Assembly (NCBI GenBank): GCA_964453135.1
Contig: CAYVOL010000002.1
Span: 55,094-119,093 of the forward strand
DNA: 64,000 nucleotides
Direction of reading: 5' to 3'
Source: an uncultured Candidatus Saccharibacteria bacterium
GTDB taxonomy: Bacteria > Patescibacteriota > Minisyncoccia > UBA6257 > UBA9933
Below are positions 3,377-62,166 of the stretch, piece by piece. The notes below the pieces were generated by a model. That model did not search any database and was not told the DNA's origin. It saw only the letters and a program-made list of their open reading frames with translations. Numbering within the stretch: position 1 is the stretch's first letter; every line of letters begins with the position of its first letter. The position numbers were made by a program, and so were the translations under genes.

Positions 3377-3389
3377 AAAAATTTATTTT

Positions 3390-4424: not shown

Positions 4425-4434
4425 TCAAATCAAA

Positions 4435-5556: not shown

Positions 5557-5557
5557 T

Positions 5558-6514
5558 ATGGCGATAAGCAGAAATAGAAAAAAACCAAAAGTCTCCGTTA
5601 TCATACCCACCTATAATAATTCCTTATTTCTGAAAGCCGCCATCGAAAGCGTTTTGCGGCAAACTTTTCAGGATTTTGAATTGATTATCGTTAACGACGG
5701 TTCAACCGATAACACCGAACAGGTTATCAACCAATTCAGAGTTAACGATGTGCGGATTACTTATATAAAACAGGATAACTTCGGCGGTTTGGCGGGACCG
5801 GTCAACAAGGGATTAAAAATAGCCCAGGGAGATTATATTGCTATTTTGGAAAACGACGATGAATGGCTGCCGGAAAAACTTGAGAAACAGGTTAAATTAT
5901 TAGAGCAATCAGCGCAAGATGTCGGCTGTGCCGGTTGCCACGCCCTAATTGTTGATTGCTTAACAAAAGCCGTTAAGCAGAAAAAAAATAATCCCATAAC
6001 CAGTAACGATCGTGACGCGTTTTTAAGAATTGTTTATGGCGAGAATTTTATGACCACTTTCAGCGTTTTTCTACTAAAAAAGGAGGTTTTCGATGCCGTC
6101 GGAATCATCGATGAAAATTTAAAATACGGAGCGGACAACGATTTTTTCTTCAGGGTTTTCCAAAGGTTCAATCTCGCTATCGTGCCGGATTTTTTGGTAA
6201 AATATAATATCCACGGTTCCAATCTTACAAAAGTTATGTCCGTCGCAAAAATTCAAGAGTTAGAGTACATGCTTCATAAGCATAATGATTTATTTAATAA
6301 GGTCCCGGATATTAAGAGCGCCAGACTGCAAGATGTTGGCGGGCTTTGGTTTTTAAGGGGAGAAAAAAAACGGGCGCGCACATTTTTTGCGGAAGCGATT
6401 AAGATTTCTTCGTCGCGAAGCCGCGTTTATACGAAATACGTTTTCACATTTTTCCCGCTTATTTTTTATAAGATCATTAGAGTCGCCGCCGCATTATTTA
6501 AAAATAGGCAATGA
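5558..6514 (+). CDS. family 2 glycosyltransferase
   Basis: VSVIIPTYNNSLFLKAAIESVLRQTF...ELIIVNDGSTDNT GT-A signature with DxD region. Confidence 0.8.
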   Translation: MAISRNRKKPKVSVIIPTYNNSLFLKAAIESVLRQTFQDFELIIVNDGSTDNTEQVINQFRVNDVRITYIKQDNFGGLAGPVNKGLKIAQGDYIAILENDDEWLPEKLEKQVKLLEQSAQDVGCAGCHALIVDCLTKAVKQKKNNPITSNDRDAFLRIVYGENFMTTFSVFLLKKEVFDAVGIIDENLKYGADNDFFFRVFQRFNLAIVPDFLVKYNIHGSNLTKVMSVAKIQELEYMLHKHNDLFNKVPDIKSARLQDVGGLWFLRGEKKRARTFFAEAIKISSSRSRVYTKYVFTFFPLIFYKIIRVAAALFKNRQ

Positions 6515-7710
6515 AAAACCTTAAAAAAACATTATTGAAAATGCCGCTAGTTTATTCGCTCAACGCTTTTTGGAAGGCAGGGCAAAATACGCGCAAAACG
6601 AAGAAATTGCACGATTTTTATAATAGAAAAGCAGATGAACTCGGCATTAAATATGACGAGAAGGAAATTATCAACAAGGTGAGAGCAAATTTAGCAAAAA
6701 GAGGGATTGTCTTTAATAAGGCAAAAAAAGATTTGAGAATTTTTTGGGTGGGCGCCCATTATGCGCAGGACATGTCTGGAACGCTGCAGGGGTTAAAAAA
6801 AATCGGAGAAATAACCACTTTTCAAAATGAAGAAGACGGATACGGCCTTTTGTGGAGGCAAACCTCAAAAGCCGGAATGAGCGAATCGGAGATAATTGAA
6901 AGCAATAGCCGCATGCTGTTAAAGCAAGTTAGAGAAGATAATCAAAAGGGAAAGATAGATTTGCTAATGGGACAAATGTGGGCGGATGTTTTGGATGTCG
7001 AATCTTTAAAAAAAATTCAGCAAATGGGCATCCCGGTAGTCAACATTTCAATGGATGACAAAATACCTGACCTTTGGGGAAGAAAAAATAATAAAAGAAT
7101 CGGAGCGGTAGGTTTGGTTTCGGGAGTTGATTTGACGCTTACCACTTCGCCGGATACTTGCCTCTGGTATCAGGTAGAAGGAGGAGCGGCTGTGTATTGG
7201 CCACTAGCAAGCGATCCCAATATATTTTATTCAAGAGAGCCGAAAATTTATGATGTAGTTTTTGTTGGCGGCAAATATGGGGTTCGCGGGAAATTAGTCC
7301 AGGCAATAATGGAGGCAGGGGTAAAAATAGAGGCGTTCGGCCCCGGATTTCCCAACGGTTTTATTAGCGCAGATAAAATCGCCGAAGTTTTTGGAAAGGC
7401 AAGAATAATTTTAGGAAGCGGTTATGTTGGCTATAACACCGACATTCTTACTATTAAATTAAGAGATTTTGATGCGACGATGGCGGGGGCTTTATATTTA
7501 ACAAATCGCAATCCAGATTTATTAAAATTATTTGACGAGGGAAAGGAAATTGAATGCTATGATACTATTGAGGAGTGTGTAAGTAAAATTAAATTTTATC
7601 TTGCCGATCCGGATAAATTAAAAACGGTGGCCGAATCCGGCCTGAAAAAAGCCAGAGAAAATTATACCTGGGAAGAAAATATTAAACGGGCATTAGAAAT
7701 TATCGGTTGA
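6511..7710 (+). CDS. CgeB-family / DUF3880-like glycosyltransferase-related protein
   Basis: C-terminal half (DVVFVGGKYG...ILGSGYVGYNTD...DATMAGALYLTN...KLKTVAESGLKKAREN) resembles the CgeB spore-maturation glycosyltransferase-like domain. Start overlaps the upstream stop (ATGA). Confidence 0.45.
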   Translation: MKNLKKTLLKMPLVYSLNAFWKAGQNTRKTKKLHDFYNRKADELGIKYDEKEIINKVRANLAKRGIVFNKAKKDLRIFWVGAHYAQDMSGTLQGLKKIGEITTFQNEEDGYGLLWRQTSKAGMSESEIIESNSRMLLKQVREDNQKGKIDLLMGQMWADVLDVESLKKIQQMGIPVVNISMDDKIPDLWGRKNNKRIGAVGLVSGVDLTLTTSPDTCLWYQVEGGAAVYWPLASDPNIFYSREPKIYDVVFVGGKYGVRGKLVQAIMEAGVKIEAFGPGFPNGFISADKIAEVFGKARIILGSGYVGYNTDILTIKLRDFDATMAGALYLTNRNPDLLKLFDEGKEIECYDTIEECVSKIKFYLADPDKLKTVAESGLKKARENYTWEENIKRALEIIG

Positions 7711-7720
7711 CTTTAATTCT

Positions 7721-9568
7721 ATGTGCGGGATTGCCGGAATTGTCGCTCAAAATTCAAGAAACTGCGAGAAGGAAGTAAGGAAAATGGCGGATGCACTTGG
7801 TCATCGCGGACCGGATGACGAAGGGATTTTTTTAGACGAAAAAAACGGCGTGGCGCTCGGCCATCGCCGACTTTCAATTTTAGATTTGTCGGCTGCGGGC
7901 CACCAGCCGATGGTTTGGCGTGGCGCGCGAGATGAGGAAATTGTCATAGTTTTTAACGGCGAAATTTACAATTTTTTAGAGATTAAGAAAGATTTGCTGG
8001 GGAAAGGATATTCTTTTCGTACTAAAACCGACACCGAGGCGATATTGGCCCTTTATAATGAATACGGCGGAAAATCTTTCGCGATGCTGAAAGGAATGTT
8101 TGCGTTTGCCATGTGGGACGGAGAAAATGAGCAACTCGTTTGCGCTCGCGATCGTTTCGGAGAAAAGCCGCTTTATTACGCTTGGGGCGTTAATGGCGAA
8201 TTTATTTTTGCTTCGGAGATTAAGGCGATTTTGGCTTCGGGATTGGTAAAGCCGATTTTGGATTTGGAATCCGTTTCTTGTTATTTGGGGCATCTTTATG
8301 TTTATCCAAACAAGACGATTTATAAGAATATCCATACTTTGCCGGCGGGGCATCAACTTGCATACAAAAATGGCGAAGTGGAAATAAAAAGATATTGGAA
8401 TTTGCCGCCGGTGAACCAAAAAATCACTCTTGACGAAGTGATTCCGGTTTTCAGAAATTTATTAAATCAAGCGGTGGAGCGGCAGTTGATAGCCGATGTG
8501 CCGGTGGGCGCTTTTTTGAGCGGCGGCTTGGATTCTTCAACGATTGTGGCGGTTGCTTCGCAATTTAAGCCGAAAATAAAAACTTTTTCTTTCGCTTTTC
8601 GCGATTCAATTGACGAGACGCCATACGCGCGCGAGATTGCCAAGAAATATAATACCGACCACGTTGAGCTTTTTGATGACGGAGAAGATTTGGGAGAATT
8701 GTTTATAAAAATGCAGGAAATTTACGATGAGCCGCTCGGCGATTCCTCTAATATCCCGACATATTTAATTTCTAAATTGGCGCGGCAGTACACGAAAGTC
8801 GTTTTAACAGGAGATGGCGGTGACGAAATATTGGGCGGTTATGGCTGGTACAAGCCGTTTTTATATTTAAATTCAAAGGATAGCGTTTTTTGGCGCAATC
8901 AATTCGTGTATTTTATCGCGCGAGCGGTTCGGCGAATAAACGGCAATCAATTTTTGCTGCATAAAGTTTTAGGCGCGCGACATGAAGCAGTTAGTGATGT
9001 TGTTCAAGTGCATTTAGCAACTCAGCAAAATGTTTTTAATAATGCGGAACTAGCAGCGTTGGACCTGCCGCAATTTTTAGAAAAAAACTATTATCAGCCG
9101 AGTTGGAAAGCAGAAAATAACTTAAACGATGTTTTTCGAGTTGATCTAGAAAATTATATGCCGGGCGATATCTTGGTGAAAACCGACCGAGCATCAATGG
9201 CGAATGGATTGGAATTGCGCGCGCCGTTTTTGGATGTAGATTTAGCTTCGTTTTGCATTTCTCTGCCATATCAATTAAAAGTAAACAAAGATAGCGATAA
9301 AATAATTTTGCATAAGGCAGCGGCTGATTTATGGACGCCGTCTATTCGAAAACGGACGAAGCAGGGCTTTGGCGCGCCGGTTGGAAAATGGTTGCAAGAG
9401 AAATCATTGGCGGGTTTGAGGCGCGATTATTTACAGAATTCCAAAAGAAAAATTTTTGATGTAATTTCTTTTGATGCGTCGCAACTGTTCGCCGCTAAAA
9501 ATAATTATCAGACATGGGCGCTACTGGTTTTGGCGCTATGGATGGAAAAGCATAACTTTGATTTATGA
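7721..9568 (+). CDS. asnB: asparagine synthetase-like glutamine amidotransferase (class II GATase, AsnB/WbpS-type)
   Basis: N-terminal MCGIAGIV with catalytic Cys2, PP-loop SGGLDSS, 615 aa. In glycan clusters these enzymes amidate uronic acids. Confidence 0.85.
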   Translation: MCGIAGIVAQNSRNCEKEVRKMADALGHRGPDDEGIFLDEKNGVALGHRRLSILDLSAAGHQPMVWRGARDEEIVIVFNGEIYNFLEIKKDLLGKGYSFRTKTDTEAILALYNEYGGKSFAMLKGMFAFAMWDGENEQLVCARDRFGEKPLYYAWGVNGEFIFASEIKAILASGLVKPILDLESVSCYLGHLYVYPNKTIYKNIHTLPAGHQLAYKNGEVEIKRYWNLPPVNQKITLDEVIPVFRNLLNQAVERQLIADVPVGAFLSGGLDSSTIVAVASQFKPKIKTFSFAFRDSIDETPYAREIAKKYNTDHVELFDDGEDLGELFIKMQEIYDEPLGDSSNIPTYLISKLARQYTKVVLTGDGGDEILGGYGWYKPFLYLNSKDSVFWRNQFVYFIARAVRRINGNQFLLHKVLGARHEAVSDVVQVHLATQQNVFNNAELAALDLPQFLEKNYYQPSWKAENNLNDVFRVDLENYMPGDILVKTDRASMANGLELRAPFLDVDLASFCISLPYQLKVNKDSDKIILHKAAADLWTPSIRKRTKQGFGAPVGKWLQEKSLAGLRRDYLQNSKRKIFDVISFDASQLFAAKNNYQTWALLVLALWMEKHNFDL

Positions 9569-10581
9569 CCCCATTTATTTCAATTTGCATCCCGAGTTAT
9601 AACCGGCCGAAAGAACTTTTGCGGCTGTTAAAAAGCGTTGATGCGTTAAAATTCGACGATATCGAGATTGTCGTTGCGGAAGATAAAAGCGTGAAAAGAG
9701 ATGAGATTAGAAGCGAGGTTGAGAAATTCAAAAAAGAAACAAAATACAGAATTGTTTACAAGGAAAATGAAAATAATTTTGGTTATGATAAAAATCTGCG
9801 GGAGTTAATTAACAATGCCGCTGGCGAGTGGATTATTTATATGGGCGATGACGACATTTTTGTTCCCGGCGTCCTGGATAAATTTATTCTTTTTTTGAAA
9901 GAACACAATGATTTGGGGTATGTTTTGAGGTCGTATAATGTTATTCATTATGGTGGCGAAACGGAAAAATTTCGGTATTTTGAAGGAAACAAATTTTTTG
10001 ATCCGGGATTTTACGCGTATCTTTCTTTATTTAGGAAAAGCGTTTTTATTTCCGGTTTTACAATCAAACGAGAATTGGCGAAGCGTTTTTTGATCGGCGA
10101 TTTTGACGGAACCCTGCTTTTCCAGTTGTATTTGGCGGCAGAAGTCGTTTTAAAATTTCCTTCGGCATATTTCGACGAGCCATTAACCAATGCTTACGAA
10201 AAAGAATTAAAGCCGGAGTTCGGTTCATCCGAGGCGGAAAAGAAATTCTACACCCCCGGCGCGATAACAATTGAAAATTCAATAAATTTTATGAAGGGAT
10301 TTTTAAAGATAGCCGATTATATCGATAAAAAGTATAATTTCAATTCGGCGGAAATTATTCAATGGGACATCTCAAAGTATTCCTATCCGGTTTTATCAAT
10401 TCAGCGCGATAAAGGCTTGAAAGAATTTTTAAGATATGTAAAAGAATTAAACAAATTGGGTTTTAACATTACGATTTATTATTATATTTACATTATCGCT
10501 TTGATTTTATTTGGAAAAAAATTTTGCGATTATTCAATTTTTTTTATTAAGAAAATTTTAGGTAAAACCCCTGAATTATAA
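9565..10581 (+). CDS. family 2 glycosyltransferase
   Basis: ISICIPSYNRPKELLRLLKSV...IEIVVAEDKS GT-A N-terminus. 4-nt overlap with asnB. Confidence 0.7.
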   Translation: MTPFISICIPSYNRPKELLRLLKSVDALKFDDIEIVVAEDKSVKRDEIRSEVEKFKKETKYRIVYKENENNFGYDKNLRELINNAAGEWIIYMGDDDIFVPGVLDKFILFLKEHNDLGYVLRSYNVIHYGGETEKFRYFEGNKFFDPGFYAYLSLFRKSVFISGFTIKRELAKRFLIGDFDGTLLFQLYLAAEVVLKFPSAYFDEPLTNAYEKELKPEFGSSEAEKKFYTPGAITIENSINFMKGFLKIADYIDKKYNFNSAEIIQWDISKYSYPVLSIQRDKGLKEFLRYVKELNKLGFNITIYYYIYIIALILFGKKFCDYSIFFIKKILGKTPEL

Positions 10582-11474
10582 TGTTATTTTCTATGAAACA
10601 AGAAAGTTATTTAATGAAATTTTTAAGGGAATTAGGAATTGATTCGTTGGCTTGGTCCCTGCGGCGGCTCCACTGCCCTGTTAAAAAAAATGATTTAGTT
10701 TTGGAAATCGGCAGTGGCGGCAATCCTTATCCGCGGGCGAATATTCTTTGCGACGCTTATTTAGAAACTATGGAGCGTCATTTTGATCCCTTGGTACATG
10801 ACCGCCCGACGATTCTGGCTTTTACGGAAAATTTGCCCTTTAAAGATAATGTTTTTGACTTTGTAATCGCGTCACATGTTTTAGAGCATTCATCCAATCC
10901 GGATAAATTTTTAGCAGAAATACAGCGAGTCGGGAAAGCGGGCTACATAGAAACGCCAAGCGCTTTTTTTGAGAGGTTATGCCATTATCCAATGCATCGT
11001 CTTGAGATCGAAAATAAAAATAACGAATTATTAATTTATAAAAAAACGGGCCAGATTGAAGATAAATATTTAAGCAGATTATTTTTGGAGGTTAGCGCAA
11101 TTTTTTCTGAATGGGTTTCTAGTCATCCGTTTAATTTCCATGTCCGCTATTACTGGAACAAAGATATTGGCGGAATAAAATACAAGATTCTTAATCCCGG
11201 TTACAAATTTGATTGGAATGCGCCGTTGCCCCAAAAAGAATTAATTCCGCCGAAAAGCTGTAAAAATAAAATAAGAACATTTATTATTTTTTTATTGAGA
11301 GATTTTCTTTCTCAAAATAAAAGAAATGAACGCCTTGATTTGCTGGATTATCTCAAATGTCTTAAATGTGGCGGCAAAAAGTTAGAGAGGGGAGAATCGG
11401 ACGTACATTGCGTTCGATGCGATTATTCATATAAAATCGTTGATAAAAATATTATAGATTTTATTAATAATTAA
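10581..11474 (+). CDS. class I SAM methyltransferase with C-terminal Cys4 zinc-ribbon
   Basis: LEIGSGGNPYP motif I, VIASHVLEHS motif, C-terminal CLKCGG...CVRCDY. Confidence 0.65.
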   Translation: MLFSMKQESYLMKFLRELGIDSLAWSLRRLHCPVKKNDLVLEIGSGGNPYPRANILCDAYLETMERHFDPLVHDRPTILAFTENLPFKDNVFDFVIASHVLEHSSNPDKFLAEIQRVGKAGYIETPSAFFERLCHYPMHRLEIENKNNELLIYKKTGQIEDKYLSRLFLEVSAIFSEWVSSHPFNFHVRYYWNKDIGGIKYKILNPGYKFDWNAPLPQKELIPPKSCKNKIRTFIIFLLRDFLSQNKRNERLDLLDYLKCLKCGGKKLERGESDVHCVRCDYSYKIVDKNIIDFINN

Positions 11475-35789: not shown

Positions 35790-35883
35790 GTCATTCTGAA
35801 TCCGCCAGCTGGCGGAGAAGAATCTTGTTAGATCCTTCGCCCCGCTAAGCGGGGCTCAGGATGACAAAAACGTTCAGGATGAC
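35790..35883. repeat. MITE-like intergenic repeat, copy A (module 1 hairpin TCCGCC-n-GGCGGA, module 2 hairpin CCCCGC-n-GCGGGG, GTCATTCTGAA / CTCAGGATGAC termini)
   Basis: gtcattctgaatccgccagctggcggagaagaatcttgttagatccttcgccccgctaagcggggctcaggatgac. Homologous to copies at 53026-53070, 57963-58015 (inverted) and 62237-62379. Confidence 0.7.
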
Positions 35884-35940
35884 AATAAAGACGAAAAGCG
35901 TAAACAACGCTGCGGTATTTTACGAATAACTTTATAACTT

Positions 35941-47723: not shown

Positions 47724-48107
47724 GGGGAGCGTCAGGCTTCGACAGAAGACTGCGCCCATAAAATTGCAGGCTGAGGACGGCCCGTTATCCTCAACAATCT
47801 TTCGGGCCAAAAAACAACTGCCAACAAAACATTGGCTCCTGCTTTCGCTTTTGCCTAAGCGGGTTTACCCGCTAAAGCTTTAGCGGCGGCGGGCATCGCT
47901 TGATTGACGCTTGATAAATCAAAAGCGGTGTTATAAATTCAAGATATATTCTTTGTTTGCCGAAGGCAAGGAACTAATTAATTTTCGGCAGGGAATTTCA
48001 AAGATTTTGCCGGATAGTACTTGAAGTTCCTAACTTAATCCGGATAAGCCTGTAGTGATTTTAGGGAAAGTCTTTTGGACAAGGGTTCAATTCCCTTCGC
48101 TTCCACC
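47724..48107 (+). ncRNA. ssrA: tmRNA (ssrA)
   Basis: Starts 3 nt after the smpB stop with GGGGAGCGTCAGGCTTCGACAG. tRNA-like 3' end AGGGTTCAATTCCCT + CGCTTCC-A-CC, acceptor pairing GGGAGCG/CGCTTCC. Internal tag frame gcc aac aaa aca ttg gct cct gct ttc gct ttt gcc taa = ANKTLAPAFAFA*. Confidence 0.75.
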
Positions 48108-52263: not shown

Positions 52264-52398
52264 AGAAGATAGAAGTTTGATGGTCAAATTTTCAACAAAA
52301 CAAGAATACTTTTTTCTGCGGTTGATGTCAATGATTTTTCTTTGGGACAATTTGAGTTTAATTTGGAAATTTTTGTTTGATGTCCTATAATTTTCCTT

Positions 52399-52959
52399 AT
52401 GATTTTATCAGACAAAGACCTGAAAAAAGCTATCAGCGAGAAAAAATTGATATTTCAGCCGAAATTGGAATCAGAGCAAATAGGGCCGGCGTCTATTGAT
52501 TTAAAATTGAGCCCGATATTCAAAGTTTTCCACGCCGAAAGAAACAGCTTATTAGATACGAAAAAAGAATTGCCCAAGGATTTTTATAAGACCTATAAAT
52601 TGAAAAACGATGAATTTTTTATTTTGCATCCAATGTCTTTTATTCTTGCCAGCACCATTGAATATATAAAAGTGCCGAGCGATATGGTGGTCAGGGTTGA
52701 GGGCAAAAGTTCTTTGGCAAGAATGGGGATTTTAGTGCATACTGCCGGTTTTGTTGATCCTGGGTTCGAAGGCGCGATAACACTGGAAATCAGCAATCAG
52801 TCAAATCTGGCTGTAACTTTATATCCGAAAATGTACATTTGCCAGATAGCGGTTGAGATGATGTCTTCGCCCGCCGAGACGCCGTATAACAAAAGAAAAA
52901 AATCTCTTTATTTGAAACAAAAGGGGCCGACCGAAGCAAAAACAAGAAATCTTTTTTAG
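52399..52959 (+). CDS. dcd: dCTP deaminase
   Basis: MILSDKDLKKAI, GPASIDLKL, VEGKSSLARMGILVHTAGFVDPGFEGAITLE. 186 aa. Confidence 0.85.
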   Translation: MILSDKDLKKAISEKKLIFQPKLESEQIGPASIDLKLSPIFKVFHAERNSLLDTKKELPKDFYKTYKLKNDEFFILHPMSFILASTIEYIKVPSDMVVRVEGKSSLARMGILVHTAGFVDPGFEGAITLEISNQSNLAVTLYPKMYICQIAVEMMSSPAETPYNKRKKSLYLKQKGPTEAKTRNLF

Positions 52960-53025
52960 ATCCGGGATAGTTTGGCCCGCGTATAGCGAGTCCGTATGCA
53001 GTTATGGCGGCGCTGTTTGCAATCT

Positions 53026-53070
53026 GTCATCCTGAGTCCCCCGCCGTGGCGGGGCGGGGCTCAGAATGAC
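53026..53070. repeat. MITE-like intergenic repeat, copy B (compact form)
   Basis: gtcatcctgagtcccccgccgtggcggggcggggctcagaatgac. 11-nt terminal inverted repeats around a CCCCGCC/GGCGGGG hairpin. Confidence 0.7.
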
Positions 53071-53207
53071 CAAGGCAGGATGTTTTGCCGAGGTTTTTTT
53101 TGAATGGCGTTAGTTGTGGTTGACGGAATTCCTAATTTAATTTACTTTTTAGGCAGAGATTATTTCAGCATTTCAGATGTTTAACAATTTCATAGAAGGA
53201 GGAAAGC

Positions 53208-53894
53208 ATGGAAAAGAAACATGGACGACGGGGCAAGTTTATCGTGTTGGAAGGCGGCGAAGGAAGCGGCAAGGGCACGGCGATTGATTTTTTGAAAGAA
53301 CGTTGCGCCACGGAGTTTCCGGGAAAAGAGTTTGTCTTTACCCGAGAGCCTGGAGGAACGGAGTACGGCGAAGAACTGCGCGGAGCATTACTTTCCCCGG
53401 CCAACAAAGGGAAAGTTACTGCGCTCTCGGAGCTTTTGACATTTTGCGCCATCCGGGCAAATCACTGCGACCTACTTATTCGCCCAGCTCTTGATGCCGG
53501 AAAGATCGTGGTCTGCGACAGGTTTTACCATTCCACTATTGCTTACCAGATTTACGGAAGAGACAGGAAGGAGTTGCGGCCGGTTTTTGAACGGATTAAT
53601 TCTTACGCAATCGGAGGAAACGGGAAGGGCGGCGGATTGGAGCCGGATCTCGTCATATTTTTAGATGTTGAACCAGAGATCGGCCTGGAAAGAATCCAAC
53701 GAAGAAAGGGAGAATTAACGCGGTTTGACCAGGAGAAGCTTATGTTTCATAAGCGCGTTTTCTGGGGATATACCGACCAGTATTACGACGGAAACAGCGA
53801 TAATTGGGTGCGCATAGATACCGGACTTTACGACATAGAAAGAATGCGCGCGCTCGTGTTTCAAGAAGCCAAAACGCTTTTAGCCGGAGGATAA
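53208..53894 (+). CDS. tmk: thymidylate (dTMP) kinase
   Basis: P-loop FIVLEGGEGSGKGT, TREPGGTEYGEELR, lid region. GGAGG RBS upstream. Confidence 0.85.
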   Translation: MEKKHGRRGKFIVLEGGEGSGKGTAIDFLKERCATEFPGKEFVFTREPGGTEYGEELRGALLSPANKGKVTALSELLTFCAIRANHCDLLIRPALDAGKIVVCDRFYHSTIAYQIYGRDRKELRPVFERINSYAIGGNGKGGGLEPDLVIFLDVEPEIGLERIQRRKGELTRFDQEKLMFHKRVFWGYTDQYYDGNSDNWVRIDTGLYDIERMRALVFQEAKTLLAGG

Positions 53895-53904
53895 GGAGGA
53901 CAGG

Positions 53905-55278
53905 ATGATTTCGGTTAATCTGGTCAATAAATCGGAAGTTCCGCCTTTGAAAAGCGCGTCGCAAGCCGGGCGCACCTGTTACAGCGACGAGATACCAGAC
54001 GCAGATGATGGAAAGATGCTTGACGTTGAGGGGCGATTATTCGACACGGGTCATCATACGACCTGCGAACATTTCTATATGTCGTATGCGATAGAGGGGA
54101 TTGCGGTGGGAGATGTAACATTCGGTTTGCATCTGGCCCATCCTTTCTATAACAGCGATCAGCGATCAGGAAGATTTTGCGGAAAGATGTTTACAAATCC
54201 TGACCGCGCTTATACGCAAATCGCAAGCTATCTCAGCAACTATTGGCCGCTGTTGGATTACTCGCGTCATCGCGAAGTAATGAATTATGTATGCGAGGGC
54301 GTTCAGTTATTCAATTCTTATCTTCCGCGCGCGACAGAAGTCGCGGAGCGCTGGATAGCAGAAGACCGGCCTTTCGCGAGCAAATTTGTTCGGGCGAGCG
54401 CGGCAAAATTCGCGCAAGAGCAGTTGCGGATGTTTATTCCGGTCATTTTTCCTACTGGGCTGATATATACGATTGACCCCATTACGCTCGCTTCAATGTA
54501 TCGCGCGGCATGGAGTCCGCCATTGCGGTGCGTAACCGGCCAAATGGCCGATGCGCTTATCACGAAATATCCGGAGGTCGGATTTATGTTCGGTCCGCGC
54601 GACGAGGATTACGAGTGGGCGCCGGAAAAAATGGAAAATCGCGGAGAGATGTTTTTGTATACTCCTCGACTTGATTCTCTTGAAGTCAAGATTAAGGAGA
54701 ATAAATTTATAGCGCCTGCTCCAGTCGACAAACATCCAATTGATCTGCTTCGGTTTCGCCCAGAGTTTATGGATAATTCGGTGGCGACAATAGAAACAAG
54801 AATTTCGATTTCCTTGGCTACAATGGGACAAGACCAGCGCCATCGGACAATTGAGCGGGGCATTCCGCAATTTACCGGAGAATTTTATATTCCTCCGATA
54901 ATGGCGGGACTCGGGGCTGAGCGTCGGATATGGGAGCAGATGTGTTGGTGGCTATCTTTCAAAGACCGCCTGCCACCGACGCTTTGGATGATTCTCGCGC
55001 CATACGGAGCAGTGGTTTCCTACGAAAAGCGCGCCAGCTTGAACGCGATGATCCACGAGCAAGCCAAACGTTTATGCTGGAGCGCGCAGGAAGAAATTTA
55101 TCATCTCGGGCGCGAGATGAGGCAGGGGTTGCTCAAGCAAGGATACGAAAACTTGGCCGATCTTTTTCCGCCGCATTGTTTCTTTACCGGCCGTTGCGCG
55201 GAAGGAAAGAGATTTTGCGGCAGAGACAGGAGATTGCGGCATCAACCGGAATTGTATTTTCCGGAACGGAGAATATGA
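53905..55278 (+). CDS. tandem-duplicated ThyX-like (flavin-dependent thymidylate synthase) protein with complementary motif loss between halves
   Basis: Half 1 has GHHTTCEH (like GHETPFEH) and SDQRSGRF (like SxRY) but AHP in place of RHR. Half 2 has DQRHRTIERG (the RHR motif), EFYIPP and RASLNAMIHEQ...CWSAQEEI (like [20 protein letters not shown]). Motifs recalled from T. maritima ThyX, not searched. Confidence 0.5.
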   Translation: MISVNLVNKSEVPPLKSASQAGRTCYSDEIPDADDGKMLDVEGRLFDTGHHTTCEHFYMSYAIEGIAVGDVTFGLHLAHPFYNSDQRSGRFCGKMFTNPDRAYTQIASYLSNYWPLLDYSRHREVMNYVCEGVQLFNSYLPRATEVAERWIAEDRPFASKFVRASAAKFAQEQLRMFIPVIFPTGLIYTIDPITLASMYRAAWSPPLRCVTGQMADALITKYPEVGFMFGPRDEDYEWAPEKMENRGEMFLYTPRLDSLEVKIKENKFIAPAPVDKHPIDLLRFRPEFMDNSVATIETRISISLATMGQDQRHRTIERGIPQFTGEFYIPPIMAGLGAERRIWEQMCWWLSFKDRLPPTLWMILAPYGAVVSYEKRASLNAMIHEQAKRLCWSAQEEIYHLGREMRQGLLKQGYENLADLFPPHCFFTGRCAEGKRFCGRDRRLRHQPELYFPERRI

Positions 55279-55305
55279 TTTTGGGGAGGTTCTTTCGAGC
55301 TTTAC

Positions 55306-55345
55306 GGGCTCCGGCGGATTTTCGTCGGAGCCCTTTTCATTTTTC
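55306..55345 (+). terminator. intrinsic terminator after the tmk/thyX-like pair
   Basis: gggctccggcggattttcgtcggagccc hairpin followed by ttttcattttt. Confidence 0.55.
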
Positions 55346-55399
55346 ACAAGAGTGATATGATTAAGGTCGCAAATTGTTTATTTTTTTGTCTGAATACTT

Positions 55400-55906
55400 A
55401 TGCTCAACATAATTTTAACGATTTTAGTATTGGCCGTTGTTCTTGCCGGCGGGTATTATTTTAAGGATAAATTTAATCCAATGTTTTCTCCGCTTAGGAA
55501 TGAAAACACAACCAGTGAGACTGCCAAGCAAGAGACATCCGCGAGGAATGAGAACAAAATTTCTCTTCCGGTTGGCGGCCAAGGGGATTTGAAAGTAGAA
55601 ATCTTGAAGCAAGGCCAGGGAGTGGAAATTAAAAATGGAGACAAAGCCACGGTGCATTATGTCGGGACTTTGGAAAACGAAAAAAAATTTGATTCCAGTC
55701 TTGATAGGGGCCAGCCGTTTGAATTTATCGTGGGCGCCGGCCGGGTGATTAAAGGCTGGGATTTGGGAGTTGCGGGGATGAAAGCCGGAGAGAAAAGAAA
55801 ATTAACCATTCCTTATAATTTAGCCTACGGCGAGGCGGGTATTCCTAACGCCATTCCTCCCAAAGCCACCCTTATTTTTGAGGTGGAGCTTTTGAAGATA
55901 AATTGA
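55400..55906 (+). CDS. FKBP-type peptidyl-prolyl cis-trans isomerase, membrane-anchored
   Basis: N-terminal TM helix. FKBP core ATVHYVGTLENEKKFDSSLDRGQPFEFIVGAGRVIKGWDLGVAGMKAGE. Confidence 0.8.
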   Translation: MLNIILTILVLAVVLAGGYYFKDKFNPMFSPLRNENTTSETAKQETSARNENKISLPVGGQGDLKVEILKQGQGVEIKNGDKATVHYVGTLENEKKFDSSLDRGQPFEFIVGAGRVIKGWDLGVAGMKAGEKRKLTIPYNLAYGEAGIPNAIPPKATLIFEVELLKIN

Positions 55907-57955: not shown

Positions 57956-57962
57956 TGCGGTT

Positions 57963-58015
57963 GTCATCCTGAGGAGCCCCGCTGTGGCGGGGCGACGAAG
58001 GATCTCGCGAGATTC
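57963..58015. repeat. MITE-like intergenic repeat, copy C (module 2, inverted orientation)
   Basis: gtcatcctgaggagccccgctgtggcggggcgacgaaggatctcgcgagattc. Its reverse complement aligns base-for-base with copy A 35818-35865. Confidence 0.7.
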
Positions 58016-58572: not shown

Positions 58573-59241
58573 ATGAGTAAGAGGGGGGCCAAGCCAAAGG
58601 GGAAAGTTAAAATAAAGTGGTCGTCAAAATTTGCTTACGCGATTGGGCTCTTGGTTACCGACGGCAGTTTATCGAATGATGGGCGACATATTAATTTTAC
58701 CTCAAAAGATAGGGAGTTAGTTATTTTACTAAAAGATTCTTTAATGATCGATAATCACATTGGTAAAAAAGCGAGAGTGAGCGAGCAGGAGAAAAAATAT
58801 TTTGTTATTCAATTTGGAGATGTTTTGTTTTATTCATTTTTATGCTCTATCGGCTTGATGCCATGTAAATCCAAGAAGTTAACTTCAATCAATATTCCAG
58901 ATAAATATTTTTTCGATTTTTTGCGAGGTCATTTTGATGGCGACGGAACTTTTTATTCGTATTGGGATCCGCGTTGGAAATCAAGTTTTATGTTCTATAC
59001 TGTTTTTGTTTCGGCGAGCGAAAAACATATTCAATGGCTTCAAAATAAAATATACGGATTTTTAAAAATTAAAGGGCACATCAACCATAATTTTAAGAAA
59101 ACGGTTTATGAGTTGAAATACGCCAAAAAAGAATCATTGAGTTTATTGACTAAAATGTATTATGATAACAAAGTATCTTGTTTATCAAGGAAGAAGGAAA
59201 AAATAAAAAAAGCTTTAAAAATTGATGAGTATCATCAATAG
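58573..59241 (+). CDS. free-standing LAGLIDADG-family homing endonuclease (two motifs)
   Basis: AYAIGLLVTDGSL and FDFLRGHFDGDGTF. AT-rich compared with neighbours. Ends 4 nt before tRNA-Leu. Confidence 0.7.
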   Translation: MSKRGAKPKGKVKIKWSSKFAYAIGLLVTDGSLSNDGRHINFTSKDRELVILLKDSLMIDNHIGKKARVSEQEKKYFVIQFGDVLFYSFLCSIGLMPCKSKKLTSINIPDKYFFDFLRGHFDGDGTFYSYWDPRWKSSFMFYTVFVSASEKHIQWLQNKIYGFLKIKGHINHNFKKTVYELKYAKKESLSLLTKMYYDNKVSCLSRKKEKIKKALKIDEYHQ

Positions 59242-59245
59242 GTTA

Positions 59246-59332
59246 GCCCGGGTGTCGTAATTGGTAGCCGAGCATGCTTGAGGTGCATGTGGCCGCAAGG
59301 CCGTGGAGGTTCGAGTCCTCTCCCGGGCACCA
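59246..59332 (+). tRNA. tRNA-Leu (anticodon GAG), CCA encoded
   Basis: Acceptor GCCCGGG/CCCGGGC, anticodon arm CATGC-TTGAGGT-GCATG, long variable arm GGCCGCAAGGCCG, T-arm GGAGGTTCGAGTCCTCT, 3' ACCA. Confidence 0.8.
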
Positions 59333-59916: not shown

Positions 59917-60582
59917 ATGTTAAATAAAAATAAGAAAAGAGGTTTTACTTTGTTGGAGCTTTTAATTGTTATCGGCATTTTGGCGGTTTTAGCCGGAGTG
60001 ATGATTTTTATTTTAAACCCGGCGGAAACTTTAAGGAAAGCGCGCGATTCGCAAAGGTTGAGCGATTTGGCGACGTTAAAGTCTGCCTTGGGAATTTATA
60101 TGTCCAGCGCGGCTTCTCCTCAGATTGACGGCACGAGCGGAACAGCCAATGATAAATGTTTGGGCGGCGGAGGGACAAAAACTATTTATTGGAGCAATGC
60201 TACTTCCGGCGCAAACACATCAACAACCAATTCCGGTTTTGACGCTTTTTCCGTTTCTACTTCCGGGGTTATCACCGGCAGCGGCTGGGTTCCGGTAAAC
60301 TTAAGCAGTCTTTCCGGCGGTTCTCCTATATCCGCCATGCCTATTGACCCGTCAAACACCACCAGTTCGGTTGCCACCTCCAGCTTGGTTTATCGTTATG
60401 CTTGCAGGAAGTCTCCCTTGGGATTTGAAATTAATTCTCAGTTGGAGTCTGATTTCTACACGGGCGTTTCCAGCGGCGCCGCTGATTGGAGGAAAAATGA
60501 TTCAGGCAACGAGTCCGGTCTTTATGAAGTAGGCACAGACCTGACAATTTTACTGGCCGCTAGCAGCTCTAATGCGTATTAA
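59917..60582 (+). CDS. type IV pilin-like protein (paralog 1)
   Basis: Prepilin signal MLNKNKKRG-FTLLELLIVIGILAVL with Glu+5. Conserved PAETLRKARDSQR and C-terminal LYEVGTD. Confidence 0.8.
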   Translation: MLNKNKKRGFTLLELLIVIGILAVLAGVMIFILNPAETLRKARDSQRLSDLATLKSALGIYMSSAASPQIDGTSGTANDKCLGGGGTKTIYWSNATSGANTSTTNSGFDAFSVSTSGVITGSGWVPVNLSSLSGGSPISAMPIDPSNTTSSVATSSLVYRYACRKSPLGFEINSQLESDFYTGVSSGAADWRKNDSGNESGLYEVGTDLTILLAASSSNAY

Positions 60583-60590
60583 AATAAAAA

Positions 60591-61280
60591 ATGTTAATTC
60601 ATAAAAAATCAAAAAATAAGCTCGGTTTCACGCTTTTGGAACTTTTAATTGTTATCGCTATTATCGGCATTTTGGGTATGGTGTTGTTTTTCCTGATTAA
60701 CCCGGCGGAAACTTTAAGAAAAGCTCGCGATTCGCAAAGAATTAGCGATTTGGGAACAATCAAATCGGCTTTAGCGCTTTACACTTCCAATGTTTCTTCT
60801 CCTCAGCTTGACGGAACAAGCGGAACGGCCAATGCAAAATGTAAAGACGGAAGCGGTACGAAGACAATTTTCTTAAGCGTCGCGACCAGCGGTATTGCCA
60901 CGACAACGGGTATGAGTCCTGCTTACAGCGCTTTTACCACTTCTACCTTGGCCAGTTCGTCATTGACCAATGGCACGGGATGGGTTCCGGTGAATCTGGC
61001 TTCAATTTCCGGAGGCACGCCGATTTCTCAGCTTCCGGTTGACCCGACTAATACTACAAATAGTTCGGTTGCCACCAGCAGTTTGATTTATCGTTATGTT
61101 TGTAACGGCAGTCCTTTGGGTTTTGGGGTTTCAGCGCAGATGGAAAGCGCTTATTATACCGGATCTGATTCTTCCGCTTCCAGCACGGACGTGAGAAAAA
61201 TTGACGGAGGCAACAACGCGGATCTTTACGAAGTCGGCAGCGACCCGACGCTGTTGCCGGCCACGGGAGCGAAATATTAA
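60591..61280 (+). CDS. type IV pilin-like protein (paralog 2)
   Basis: KLG-FTLLELLIVIAIIGIL. Same conserved N-terminal 50 aa and LYEVGSD tail. 8 nt after paralog 1. Confidence 0.8.
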   Translation: MLIHKKSKNKLGFTLLELLIVIAIIGILGMVLFFLINPAETLRKARDSQRISDLGTIKSALALYTSNVSSPQLDGTSGTANAKCKDGSGTKTIFLSVATSGIATTTGMSPAYSAFTTSTLASSSLTNGTGWVPVNLASISGGTPISQLPVDPTNTTNSSVATSSLIYRYVCNGSPLGFGVSAQMESAYYTGSDSSASSTDVRKIDGGNNADLYEVGSDPTLLPATGAKY

Positions 61281-61310
61281 ACAGGTCGTATAAATAATTA
61301 AATAATAAAT

Positions 61311-61443
61311 CCCCACACCTAATGCGAATTGCGAAGCAAACAAAACTTTATCGTTAAACTTCGCATTCCGTAATTATAGCTATTGTTTTATTTTTCCGTA
61401 TCATTTTGGCTTCGCAAGTTTTATATTCGCATTAGGTGTGGGG
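61311..61443. repeat. large imperfect inverted repeat (27/35-nt arms, about 70-nt spacer) between pilin paralogs 2 and 3
   Basis: Arm 1 ccccacacctaatgcgaattgcgaagc (61311-37). Arm 2 gcttcgcaagttttatattcgcattaggtgtgggg (61409-43) equals the reverse complement of arm 1 plus an 8-nt insertion. Confidence 0.7.
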
Positions 61444-61491
61444 ATAGAAATAATCCATCAATGAATTTTCATCAAAACAGAAAATTTTACT

Positions 61492-62166
61492 TTGCTTGAA
61501 CTTTTGATTGTGGTGGCGATTTTGGCGGTGTTGGGCGCCATTACTTTGTTTGTCTTGAATCCGGCGGAAACTTTGAAGAAAACAAGGGATTCGCAGAGAA
61601 TTACCGATTTGGGAACAATTAAATCGGCGCTGGCTTTGTATTTAACCAGCACCTCCACCGCTTATATAGGCGCGACTTCCACAAGTCCCATTACGACAAA
61701 CGGAGGTTGTCTTAATGGCGGCGCTTCGCTCGGTTCAGCCAGCGGAACGGTTTGGTACAGCGTTAACACTACTTTAGCGAAAGCTACAACTACTTATCCT
61801 GATAACGGAGTAGGCGCCAGCGTCTGGGCTCACGCAACTTCCACCAATCTTTATCTGACCGACGGAACAGGATGGGTTCATGCCAATCTTGACGCTTTGA
61901 CCGGCGGTTCCCCCATTTCCAATTTGCCGGTTGATCCGACCAATACAATAGCCGGGGCAAATAATTCCACCAGCACTGATTTGGTTTACCGGTACGGCTG
62001 CGCGGTTGACAATGCCGCCAATAAATCTATTACCGGATTCGAAGTGGACGCCGAGCTGGAAAGTTCCGCTTACAGCGGAATGGCTTCCACTGACGGCGGA
62101 GATAATTCCCAGCTTTACGAAGTGGGCACTCAGGTAAAAAATCTTTTGCCGAAAAGCGGATTCTAA
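61492..62166 (+). CDS. type IV pilin-like protein (paralog 3) with disrupted or non-canonical leader
   Basis: Mature region FTLLELLIVVAILAVLGAITLFVLNPAETLKKTRDSQR and LYEVGTQ tail are conserved. No in-frame ATG; Asn instead of Gly at -1. ATG at 61461 is in another frame. Confidence 0.55.
   Translation: MLELLIVVAILAVLGAITLFVLNPAETLKKTRDSQRITDLGTIKSALALYLTSTSTAYIGATSTSPITTNGGCLNGGASLGSASGTVWYSVNTTLAKATTTYPDNGVGASVWAHATSTNLYLTDGTGWVHANLDALTGGSPISNLPVDPTNTIAGANNSTSTDLVYRYGCAVDNAANKSITGFEVDAELESSAYSGMASTDGGDNSQLYEVGTQVKNLLPKSGF

What the first reader, a model, noticed from the sequence alone, without database searches (positions are those of the whole stretch)
53150..55350. GC-shifted islet carrying tmk and a 457-aa tandem ThyX-like protein whose two halves have complementary active-site motifs
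By eye the segment is richer in G+C than the flanks (not computed). Indirect support: ten spurious ORFs of at least 60 aa pile up on both strands within 2 kb here, versus zero to two elsewhere, as expected when stop codons become rarer. The large ORF appears to be two ThyX-fold repeats. Repeat 1 keeps GHHTTCEH and SDQRSGRF (SxRY-like) but has AHP where RHR should be. Repeat 2 keeps QRHRTIERG, EFYIPP and the RASLNAMIHEQ…SAQEEI segment but lacks SxRY. ThyX active sites are built across subunits, so a fused pseudo-dimer with complementary degeneration is mechanistically plausible. It would complete a dcd, dUMP, ThyX, dTMP, Tmk pathway. The flanking repeat copy B and the composition shift suggest horizontal acquisition.
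Basis: partly seen in the sequence, partly recalled or inferred. Interest (0 to 1): 0.6.

Follow-up and report, generated by a model that had tools for sequence, protein, structure and literature searches.

The report
Two-domain ThyX thymidylate synthase operon
The 457-residue protein is a fused double copy of the flavin-dependent thymidylate synthase ThyX whose two halves each keep only part of the active site; it belongs to a very widespread, already-annotated but structurally unstudied form of the enzyme, and shows no sign of recent import.

Summary
Window 53150-55350 is the most G+C-rich 2.2-kb stretch (0.497 against 0.420). It holds ten spurious ORFs, against a mean of 3.8. It encodes tmk and a 457-aa ORF.

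Both halves of that ORF have the ThyX fold:
- N-half: Pfam Thy1 43 bits; hhalign 98.3%.

The motif complementarity is real and invariant in 78 homologues. Only the N-half keeps the dUMP-loop residues S88, G89 and R90. Only the C-half keeps RHR (312-314) and R389 (T. maritima R174). In canonical ThyX these two sets come from different subunits of one active site. A dimer should therefore form a pseudo-tetramer with two working sites. That step is inferred.

The protein is not a local oddity. It aligns over its full length (hhalign 100%, E 2e-49) with a ~505-565-aa two-domain ThyX class of more than 5,500 proteins, routinely annotated as ThyX. That class shares the same complementarity and four invariant cysteines.

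Horizontal acquisition is not supported. The gene is G+C-richer than its flanks in 57 of 63 genomes. A relative shares the synteny and the same G+C excess.

Verdict: new member of a known kind.

The parts
52399..52959 (+). dcd, dCTP deaminase (186 aa). It supplies dUTP or dUMP upstream of thymidylate synthesis. G+C is only 0.383.
   Evidence: TIGR02274 190 bits against cutoff 92.8; PF22769 144 bits. G+C.
53024..53102 (+). Intergenic hairpin repeat element (GTCATCCTGAG-...-CTCAGAATGAC, 53024-53072), followed by a terminator-like hairpin with a T-run (53074-53089 plus T8). It ends the dcd transcript.
   Evidence: Related copies lie at 57961-58005 (+) and 35825-35885 (-).
53208..53894 (+). tmk, dTMP kinase (228 aa), first gene of the two-gene unit.
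   Evidence: PF02223 122.5 bits; TIGR00041 127 bits against cutoff 83.25. An RBS GAAGGAGG lies upstream.
53894..53900 (+). Shine-Dalgarno AAGGAGG, 5 nt upstream of the thyX-like ATG. The gap after the tmk stop is 10 nt, so the two genes are likely co-transcribed.
53905..55278 (+). Two-domain ThyX (457 aa plus stop).
53905..54600 (+). N-terminal ThyX domain (res 1-232), the 'substrate-loop' half.
- Keeps H50, T52, H56 (T. maritima H53, T55, H59); Q86, S88, G89, R90, F/Y91 (E86, S88, G89, R90, Y91); E172, R175 (E144, R147).
- Lacks both Arg of RHR: L-H76-L by hhalign, A-H-P by ungapped count.
- Has A202 in place of T. maritima R174.
   Evidence: Pfam Thy1 43.3 bits against GA 24.8, res 14-201. 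hhalign against a canonical ThyX alignment: 98.3%, E 1.7e-14, 189 columns. Conservation.
54049..54072 (+). GHHTTCEH (res 49-56).
   Evidence: H50, T52 and H56 are invariant in 107 of 107 sequences.
54154..54177 (+). SDQRSGRF (res 84-91), the dUMP-binding Ser-x-Arg-Tyr/Phe loop.
   Evidence: S88 is present in 107 of 107 and R90 in 105 of 107 sequences.
54667..55134 (+). C-terminal ThyX domain core (res 255-410), the 'RHR / flavin' half.
- Keeps Q309 (T. maritima Q75), R312-H313-R314 (R78-H79-R80), R389 (R174) and AQEEI (AQWEI).
- The S-G-R-Y loop is shortened and lacks the Arg and Tyr.
- E144 and R147 are replaced by T and M.
54835..54861 (+). QRHRTIERG (res 311-319), the only RHR ThyX motif in the protein.
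   Evidence: Q311, R312, H313 and R314 are invariant in 107 of 107 sequences.
55075..55218 (+). Four invariant cysteines: C391 (two residues after R389, at the position of T. maritima D176), C425, C431 and C438. They lie within RLC...PPC...C-x-EG-x-R-x-CG. This is a putative metal site (Zn or Fe-S) that has no counterpart in the canonical ThyX sequences aligned here.
   Evidence: 107 of 107 sequences conserved across the CPR family and the long class. Tail pLDDT is 81-93. Metal binding itself was not tested.
55306..55343 (+). Intrinsic-terminator-like hairpin (12-bp stem, 9 G-C pairs) followed by TTTTCATTTT. It ends the tmk-thyX unit.

Best explanation
What it is. Window 53208-55278 is a native two-gene operon. 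It encodes dTMP kinase and a two-domain flavin-dependent thymidylate synthase.

How the enzyme is built. One polypeptide carries two ThyX-fold domains that diverged after an old duplication. Each lost a different part of the active site.
- The C-terminal domain kept the residues that canonical ThyX takes from 'subunit A': the RHR motif and the Arg equivalent to T. maritima R174 / M. tuberculosis R199. These bind FAD and the uracil and phosphate of dUMP.
- The N-terminal domain kept the residues taken from 'subunit C': the Ser-Gly-Arg-Tyr/Phe dUMP loop. It also kept T. maritima H53, T55, E144 and R147.

How it most likely works (inferred). Two chains form a pseudo-tetramer equivalent to the canonical homotetramer. 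Only two of the four potential sites are complete, that is, one FAD and one dUMP site per 457-aa chain. In each site a C-domain provides the role-A residues and an N-domain provides the role-C residues. The reaction is then the normal ThyX one: methylene transfer from CH2-H4folate through reduced FAD to dUMP. dUMP comes by way of Dcd, and Tmk phosphorylates the dTMP product.

Four invariant cysteines next to the R389 helix probably hold a metal. Its role, structural or redox, is unknown.

The G+C excess reflects the composition of this conserved protein pair, not recent import.
For: Shown:
- Residue complementarity is invariant in 78 species-level homologues and in 29 members of the long class.
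- Subunit roles of those residues come from PMC6514825, section 3.1. RHR-A and R199-A sit on one subunit; S105-C, R107-C and Y108-C sit on another. [quoted passage not shown]
- Conserved neighbourhood: dCMP deaminase or dcd, an AAA_18 kinase, Tmk and MazG.
- An RBS, a 10-nt gap and bounding terminators define the operon.
- No thyA or second thyX lies in the 64-kb window.
- The protein aligns over its full length with a class of more than 5,500 two-domain proteins named FAD-dependent thymidylate synthase.

On native origin.
Against: - No activity, cofactor or oligomer data exist for this family.
- TIGR02170 (thyX equivalog) scores 34.6 against a cutoff of 87.9.
- The C-half fails the Pfam gathering score (13 bits).
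- Some canonical contacts have no counterpart in either half: T. maritima R74 / M. tuberculosis R87-C, and T. maritima R165 / M. tuberculosis R190-B. The site must therefore be partly rebuilt. Invariant R87, R155 and R318 are candidates.
The inter-domain packing and the geometry of the composite site were not checked.
- Only 64 kb of the genome was seen, so another thymidylate synthase elsewhere cannot be excluded.
- thyX has the worst synonymous-codon fit of 66 genes (z -3.2) and tmk the fourth worst. This leaves some room for an old transfer.
Confidence: 0.78

Rival explanations
1. The tmk-thyX pair is a horizontally acquired islet. On this reading it was imported from a G+C-richer donor and is marked by a flanking repeat.
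For: - It is the highest-G+C 2.2-kb stretch in the window.
- thyX and tmk rank worst and fourth worst for synonymous-codon fit (z -3.2 and -2.3).
- Arg/Lys usage is shifted: R 8.3-8.8% against 4.5%, K 3.7-6.6% against 8.8%.
- There is a sharp composition step from dcd (0.383) to tmk (0.499).
- A tmk excess of +7 points or more is seen in only 4 of 23 other loci.
- A hairpin repeat lies just upstream.
Against: - GC3 given the amino-acid sequence is not an outlier (z 1.4 and 2.2, against a between-gene SD of 2.0; secD is higher).
- thyX is G+C-richer than its flanks in 57 of 63 genomes, by +4.2 points on average. The window's +7 is about the 78th percentile.
- The closest relative, L093, has identical synteny (tmk-thyX-FKBP-S1-RluD-L19) and the same excess (0.49-0.51 against 0.43-0.46). 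The arrangement therefore predates that split.
- The neighbours are core housekeeping genes.
- No integrase or transposase lies beside the pair, and the nearest tRNA and tmRNA genes are 4-5 kb away.
- The other repeat copies are three genes downstream and 17 kb upstream.
Confidence: 0.1
2. It is a ThyX-fold flavin methyltransferase for a different nucleotide, for example UMP like PolB, or dCMP or another pyrimidine. On this reading it is not a dTMP synthase.
For: - The TIGR02170 equivalog cutoff is not met.
- Several canonical phosphate and FAD contacts are replaced.
Against: - The gene is tightly and recurrently linked with tmk, dCMP deaminase or dcd, and MazG-type NTP pyrophosphatase. That is the dUMP-to-dTMP-to-dTDP route.
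- M. tuberculosis ThyX outscores PolB, and the T. maritima and H. pylori ThyX chains score about the same as PolB.
- The dUMP-loop residues S88, G89, R90 and Y/F91, and the uracil-binding Arg (R389), are invariant.
- No other thymidylate synthase lies in the window.
Confidence: 0.07
3. One half is a dead structural or regulatory pseudo-domain, and the protein works with some other partner, for example a separate single-domain ThyX. Alternatively the whole protein is a non-catalytic relic.
For: - Each half alone lacks essential residues.
- The two halves show no detectable similarity to each other.
Against: - Selection is extremely strong on exactly the complementary catalytic residues in both halves, across more than 100 diverse sequences.
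- No partner thyX lies in the window or in the related loci.
- The family is single-copy and syntenic with the nucleotide-metabolism genes.
Confidence: 0.04

Closest known systems
Canonical single-domain ThyX / FDTS (PF02511 Thy1, TIGR02170). Examples: T. maritima TM0449 (1O26), M. tuberculosis ThyX (2AF6), H. pylori ThyX (3AH5), PBCV-1 ThyX (4FZB).
   Same: - Same fold in both halves.
- Same catalytic residue set when the two halves are summed: H53, T55, Q75, RHR, E86/Q, S88, G89, R90, Y91, E144, R147, R174 and AQxEI.
- Same pathway context.
   Different: - One chain carries two domains, and each has only part of the site.
- It is predicted to form a dimer with two sites, not a homotetramer with four identical sites.
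- T. maritima R74, R165 and H178 are not conserved in either half.
- It adds an invariant Cys4 motif and a C-terminal tail.
- It fails the TIGR02170 cutoff (34.6 against 87.9).
Two-domain ('long', ~505-565 aa) ThyX class of Acidobacteriota, Planctomycetota, Nitrospirota, Deltaproteobacteria, Woesearchaeota and others. This is probably the 'ThyX with a domain duplication... not characterized' noted for Chloroflexi by Valas & Bourne 2009 (PMC3224940).
   Same: - Full-length profile alignment: hhalign 100%, E 2e-49, 427 columns.
- Same domain order, with SxRY only in the N-half and RHR only in the C-half.
- Same four cysteines and the same C-x-EG-x-R-x-CG motif.
- Annotated as FAD-dependent thymidylate synthase.
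   Different: - The CPR form is 50-100 residues shorter: a shorter linker and 6 fewer residues between Cys2 and Cys3.
- It shares only about 25-33% identity with the long class.
- Pfam sees both Thy1 domains in the long class (157-178 bits, two stretches), but only the N-half in the CPR form.
- Family-specific invariant residues: G74, R87, G89, R155, R318, Y328, K375 and E385.
Chlamydial ThyX (C. trachomatis).
   Same: - It is described as too divergent to include in ThyX phylogenies (PMC6171736).
- It is active in NADPH-oxidase and tritium-release assays (PMC3498832).
- From my memory only, it is about 529 aa long. That would fit the two-domain class.
   Different: Membership of the chlamydial enzyme in the two-domain class was not tested here, because no sequence was available to the tools. 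If it does belong, it would be the only biochemically studied relative.
PolB, the ThyX-like UMP/dUMP C5-methylase of polyoxin biosynthesis (4P5A).
   Different: - PolB is single-domain and sits in a natural-product gene cluster.
- The protein here sits in a tmk/dcd context.

Membership tests
ThyX / flavin-dependent thymidylate synthase (PF02511, TIGR02170) | Thy1 profile match above the curated threshold | tested here: met
   The whole protein and the N-half (res 14-201) score 43.3 and 34.1 bits against GA 24.8. The C-half alone scores 13 bits, below GA. TIGR02170 scores 34.6 against a cutoff of 87.9, so the equivalog level is not met.
ThyX / flavin-dependent thymidylate synthase | ThyX fold (a central alpha/beta domain with helical domains) | tested here: met
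- Foldseek probability 1.0.
ThyX / flavin-dependent thymidylate synthase | ThyX motif RHR-x7-S with S-x-R-Y in one subunit | tested here: not met
   No single domain has the whole motif. RHR is found only at 312-314 (C-half) and S88-G-R90-F only in the N-half. The motif is complete only when the two domains are summed.
ThyX / flavin-dependent thymidylate synthase | Homotetramer with four identical active sites, each built from three subunits | not testable with these tools
   From the residue distribution and the subunit roles in PMC6514825, I infer a dimer that forms a pseudo-tetramer with two complete sites. No multimer model or coordinates were available.
ThyX / flavin-dependent thymidylate synthase | Bound FAD, and CH2-H4folate- and NAD(P)H-dependent conversion of dUMP to dTMP | not testable with these tools
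   This needs biochemistry or thyA complementation.
ThyX / flavin-dependent thymidylate synthase | Genomic association with dTMP-pathway genes | tested here: met
   dcd-tmk-thyX in the window. dCMP deaminase or dcd, a kinase, Tmk and MazG lie next to the homologue in about 40 of 80 loci.
Two-domain ('duplicated') ThyX class | Two ThyX domains in one chain, with SxR[YF] only in domain 1 and RHR only in domain 2 | tested here: met
Two-domain ('duplicated') ThyX class | Full-length homology to the ~525-aa class | tested here: met
   hhalign probability 100%, E 2.1e-49, 427 aligned columns. phmmer gives a second tier of hits at E 1e-13 to 1e-17 with two stretches each.
Two-domain ('duplicated') ThyX class | C-terminal Cys4 signature: RLC ... 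PPC ... C-x-EG-x-R-x-CG | tested here: met
   C391, C425, C431 and C438 are invariant in 78 of 78 and 29 of 29 sequences.
Horizontally acquired genomic islet | Composition and codon usage outside the host range, mobility genes or direct repeats at the borders, and patchy presence among relatives | tested here: not met
   - GC3 given the amino acids is within range.
- The G+C excess is family-wide.
- Synteny and the G+C excess are shared with a 63%-identical relative.
- No bordering repeats or mobility genes were found.
- The only support is the codon-fit z of -3.2.

The most novel reading that the evidence does not exclude
The four invariant cysteines may bind a redox-active Fe-S cluster. One of them lies two residues after the uracil/flavin-site arginine R389, at the position of T. 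maritima D176, and the other three lie in a C-terminal knuckle. If they do hold such a cluster, the whole two-domain ThyX class (CPR, Acidobacteriota, Planctomycetota, DPANN archaea and others) would be a half-of-sites thymidylate synthase. Its flavin would be reduced through the cluster, for example by ferredoxin, rather than directly by NAD(P)H. That electron-input route has not been described for ThyX.
Probability: 0.1. Interest if true: 0.7.

Novelty: new member of a known kind. Interest (0 to 1): 0.35.

Why it matters
Candidate Phyla Radiation (CPR) bacteria have minimal metabolism. This result pins down how many of them probably make thymidylate. It also shows that curated models under-call the enzyme: TIGR02170 falls below its cutoff and Pfam misses the second domain.

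More broadly, the analysis exposes a very large, routinely annotated form of ThyX with three properties:
- No solved structure of this form appears in the PDB copy searched.
- It is a natural fused 'heterodimer', which separates the residues that each subunit role contributes to the active site.
- It has a universally conserved Cys4 site of unknown function.

ThyX is an antibacterial target, and its reductive half-reaction is still not fully understood. A naturally asymmetric, two-site version would be a useful experimental system. None of this makes the window's gene itself unusual. It is an ordinary, native member of its family.

Tried and rejected
- Direct hhalign of the N-half against the C-half (34- and 78-sequence profiles) found nothing (probability below 1%). 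The duplication is too old to see without a canonical ThyX as a bridge.
- A profile of the C-half against PDB sequences gave only chance IFIT1 hits at E 0.08. Fold comparison was needed instead.
- phmmer of the whole protein against the PDB gave only E 0.017 to H. pylori ThyX.
- The afdb50 fold library was unavailable.
- Rfam on 52300-55900 gave one sub-threshold chance hit, SNORD97, inside dcd.
- tblastn against 50,697 phage records found no match for the tandem protein, whereas canonical ThyX hits 2,142 records. There is no phage link.
- The search for repeats flanking the pair found only the short hairpin family, and it does not bracket the pair.
- Ten literature searches found no description of the tandem architecture beyond one sentence in Valas & Bourne 2009. 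PMC2258874 and PMC3465422 are not held.
- I could not establish whether chlamydial or Chloroflexi ThyX belong to this class.
- I considered and rejected the idea that the spurious ORFs (for example 54930-55355, 141 aa) are real overlapping genes. They are the expected by-product of higher G+C.
Full report
**1. The observation**

The stretch 53150-55350 has G+C 0.497. The window mean is 0.420 and the SD of 2.2-kb windows is 0.026. Only 0.16% of sliding windows reach this value, and the window maximum starts at 53001 (profiles).

Among 66-67 greedily called genes, tmk (0.499) and the 457-aa ORF (0.501) are the two G+C-richest.

Exactly ten non-genic ORFs of at least 60 aa lie in the stretch. The background is 3.8 ± 1.8 per 2.2 kb, with a maximum of 8 elsewhere.

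Gene identities:
- tmk: PF02223 122.5 bits and TIGR00041 127 bits, above its cutoff.
- The upstream gene is dcd: TIGR02274 190 bits.

**2. What the large ORF is**

Sequence evidence:
- Pfam Thy1 matches residues 14-201 at 43 bits, above the gathering score of 24.8.
- The C-terminal half alone reaches only 13 bits.
- TIGR02170 (thyX equivalog) scores 34.6 against a cutoff of 87.9.

Structure prediction and fold comparison:
- An AlphaFold2 model built on 34 homologues is confident (pLDDT 88.8, pTM 0.89).

Profile-profile comparison used a canonical ThyX alignment. That alignment held ten phage ThyX proteins fetched. The recalled sequence was validated in two ways: it hits 2,142 phage ThyX records, and its residue numbers match the PDB mutant names listed.
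- N-half: 98.3% probability, E 1.7e-14.
- C-half: 83.5% probability, E 8.3e-6.

The two halves are not detectably similar to each other. The protein is therefore an old, strongly diverged ThyX-ThyX fusion.

**3. Complementary active-site retention**

Using the hhalign register and T. maritima numbering:

| Half | Keeps | Has lost |
|---|---|---|
| N-half | H50, T52, H56 (H53, T55, H59); Q86, S88, G89, R90, F/Y91 (E86, S88, G89, R90, Y91); E172, R175 (E144, R147) | L-H76-L where R78-H79-R80 should be; A202 for R174; the H178-AQWEI segment |
| C-half | Q309 (Q75); R312-H313-R314; R389 (R174); A394-Q-E-E-I (A179-Q-W-E-I) | Substrate loop is net 5 residues shorter and has no Arg-Tyr; E144 and R147 are T and M |

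I aligned 78 species-level homologues recovered from GTDB genomes. H50, T52, H56, H76, S88, G89, E172, R175, Q311, R312, H313, R314 and R389 are invariant.

Canonical ThyX is a homotetramer, and each of its four sites is built from three subunits (PMC4913046 and PMC3498832). The review PMC6514825, section 3.1, assigns the residues as follows:
- Subunit A: the RHR motif and M. tuberculosis R199 (T. maritima R174).
- Subunit C: S105, R107 and Y108 (T. maritima S88, R90, Y91).
- Subunit B: S71 and R190.

These two residue sets are exactly the ones that have segregated into the C- and N-domains here.

What follows is inference:
- A dimer of the 457-aa chain would reproduce the four-domain assembly.
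- Only sites that take role A from a C-domain and role C from an N-domain would be complete.
- That gives two of four sites, or one per chain.

Some canonical contacts have no equivalent in either half (T. maritima R74 and R165, M. tuberculosis R87 and R190). Family-invariant R87, R155 and R318 may substitute for them. This was not tested.

**4. It is a family, and part of a much larger class**

The close family:
- The search for homologous proteins returned 811 relatives. The top 120 are all 441-489 aa, 45-63% identical and nearly full-length.
- They come from Patescibacteria/CPR MAGs, and several are already named 'FAD-dependent thymidylate synthase'.
- GTDB genomes add Paceibacteria, Moranbacteria, Magasanikbacteria and others.
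- They also add gut Alphaproteobacteria/Rickettsiales MAGs at 38-42% identity.

The wider class:
- An exhaustive phmmer search of 1.84 billion cluster representatives gave 112 hits at E ≤ 1e-30.
- It also gave a second tier of 446-567-aa proteins, each matching in two stretches.
- All 17 second-tier proteins examined have one RHR in the C-half and a C...C...C-x6-C tail. Sixteen of them also have one SQRY in the N-half.
- Named examples come from Acidobacteriota and Woesearchaeota.
- Searching with one of them (P0267) returned more than 5,557 proteins of about 505-565 aa. They come from Acidobacteriota, Thermoanaerobaculia, Planctomycetota, Nitrospirota and Deltaproteobacteria, and all are annotated ThyX.

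Relationship of the CPR family to that class:
- The CPR family aligns with it over its full length (hhalign 100%, E 2e-49, 427 columns).
- Pfam sees two Thy1 stretches in the long proteins (157-178 bits), and TIGR02170 scores them 76-97 bits.
- A merged alignment of 78 + 29 sequences shows universal invariance:
  - N-half: C25, H50, T52, H56, H76, N83, S88, E172, R175 (R90 in 105 of 107).
  - C-half: Q309, Q311, R312-R314, P366, H384, R389, C391, Q395, E397, I398, C425, C431, E433, G434, C438, G439.

The complementarity and a four-cysteine signature are thus class-wide traits.

What is on record:
- The only published mention I found is Valas & Bourne 2009. [quoted passage not shown]
- The 2018 review from the Myllykallio laboratory does not mention it.
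- No two-domain ThyX appears in the PDB copy searched.
- Chlamydial ThyX is described as too divergent for phylogenies, yet it is active in vitro.
- I recall it being about 529 aa long. That would fit this class, but I could not test it.

**5. Context and expression**

- tmk and the thyX-like gene are separated by 10 nt, with an AAGGAGG site before the second gene.
- A terminator-like hairpin follows dcd (53074-53089 plus a T-run).
- A strong terminator (12-bp stem plus a T-run) follows thyX at 55306-55343.
- In other genomes the homologue sits in a recurrent cluster of dCMP deaminase (or dcd), an AAA_18 kinase, ThyX, Tmk and MazG. Some of these partners lie next to it in about 40 of 80 loci.
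- The window contains no thyA or second thyX.
- The surrounding genes are housekeeping: ArgRS, tmRNA, IF3, NUDIX, SecDF, FKBP, S1, RluD and L19.

**6. Is the G+C shift a mark of horizontal transfer?**

Evidence against recent transfer:
- The excess lies mostly in codon positions 1 and 2: GC1 0.54-0.57 and GC2 0.40-0.43, against means of 0.47 and 0.35. GC3 is 0.528, against 0.451 ± 0.059.
- The proteins are rich in Arg, and tmk also in Gly and thyX also in Pro. Both are poor in Lys, Asn and Ile.
- Conditioned on the amino-acid sequence, GC3 is unremarkable (z 1.4 and 2.2, against a between-gene SD of 2.0).
- Across 63 other genomes the gene is G+C-richer than its flanks in 57, by +4.2 points on average. 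The window's +7 is near the 78th percentile.
- The closest relative (63% identity, contig L093) has the same order, tmk-thyX-FKBP-S1-RluD-L19, with neighbours 64-82% identical.
- That relative shows the same contrast: 0.49-0.51 for the pair against 0.43-0.46 for the neighbours.

Evidence that leaves some room:
- thyX has the poorest overall synonymous-codon fit of 66 genes (z -3.2), and tmk the fourth poorest (-2.3).
- tmk is on average only +1.7 points above its flanks in other genomes, and reaches +7 or more in 4 of 23.

The 'repeat copy B' is a short hairpin element upstream of tmk. Its other copies lie three genes downstream and 17 kb upstream, so it does not delimit the pair.

Recent acquisition is therefore not supported. 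An ancient transfer of the pair cannot be excluded.

**7. Verdict**

The gene is a native, compact, divergent CPR member of the widespread two-domain ThyX class.

What remains open concerns the class as a whole. It has no solved structure. The half-of-sites logic has not been described in the literature I could search. The Cys4 site is invariant and its function is unknown.

Noticed in passing
window 53024-53072 (+), 57961-58005 (+), 35825-35885 (-): A small intergenic hairpin repeat family, TTGTCATCCTGAG..CCCCGC(n3-4)GCGGGGCG.., sits downstream of converging or ending genes. The 11-mer GTCATCCTGAG occurs 5 times with at most one mismatch, against 0.26 expected. The 35.8-kb copy folds with z -4.3. 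It may be a REP-like or terminator-associated element.
   Followed up: partly
window 58573-59241 (+) and 59246-59332 (+): A low-G+C ORF (0.323, 222 aa) gives a weak LAGLIDADG_3 hit (E 7.8e-6). It lies between the ribosomal protein L19 gene and a tRNA-Leu(GAG) gene and ends 5 nt before the tRNA. It may be a free-standing homing-endonuclease-like gene. In composition it looks more like a foreign insert than the tmk-thyX pair does.
   Followed up: no
window 59917-62166 (+): Three tandem paralogous ORFs (221, 229 and 224 aa) share 72-88% identical DNA segments. The first carries an N-terminal prepilin methylation motif (PF07963), and all three have unusually high GC2 (about 0.52). This looks like an array of type IV pilin-like genes.
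   Followed up: no
window 55075-55218 (res 391-438 of the ThyX-like protein); also P0247-P0269 and P0267-type proteins: Four cysteines (RLC ... PPC ... C-x-EG-x-R-x-CG) are invariant in 107 of 107 two-domain ThyX sequences from bacteria and archaea. They have no counterpart in the canonical ThyX sequences aligned here. The metal ligand and its function are unknown.
   Followed up: partly
L043, L044, L048, L056, L058, L063, L066, L068, L072-L076 (genome-contig loci): The compact, CPR-type two-domain ThyX also occurs at 38-42% identity in MAGs labelled Alphaproteobacteria or Rickettsiales. These include Candidatus Enterousia and rumen and gut RGIG bins. In these loci no tmk or deaminase neighbour was detected with the CPR protein queries. 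This suggests transfer between CPR and host-associated Alphaproteobacteria, or mislabelled bins.
   Followed up: no
L093 2-766 (-): In the closest relative's contig the gene upstream of tmk is a different protein on the opposite strand. Its sequence reads like a dCTP deaminase (…IRPASLDLEI…), and it has no tblastn match in the window. The deaminase partner of the operon appears to have been exchanged, while tmk-thyX and the downstream synteny stayed fixed.
   Followed up: no
window 47725-48107 (+): A tmRNA gene with the tag peptide ANKTLAPAFAFA lies between a small ORF and infC.
   Followed up: no
window 1512-11474 (+): A low-GC3 cluster of glycan-biosynthesis genes: an FkbM-type and SAM methyltransferases, UDP-galactopyranose mutase, GT2 and GT1 glycosyltransferases, and asparagine synthase. 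Several have GC3 z-scores of -4 relative to the window's codon model. They are more deviant in GC3 than the tmk-thyX pair.
   Followed up: no
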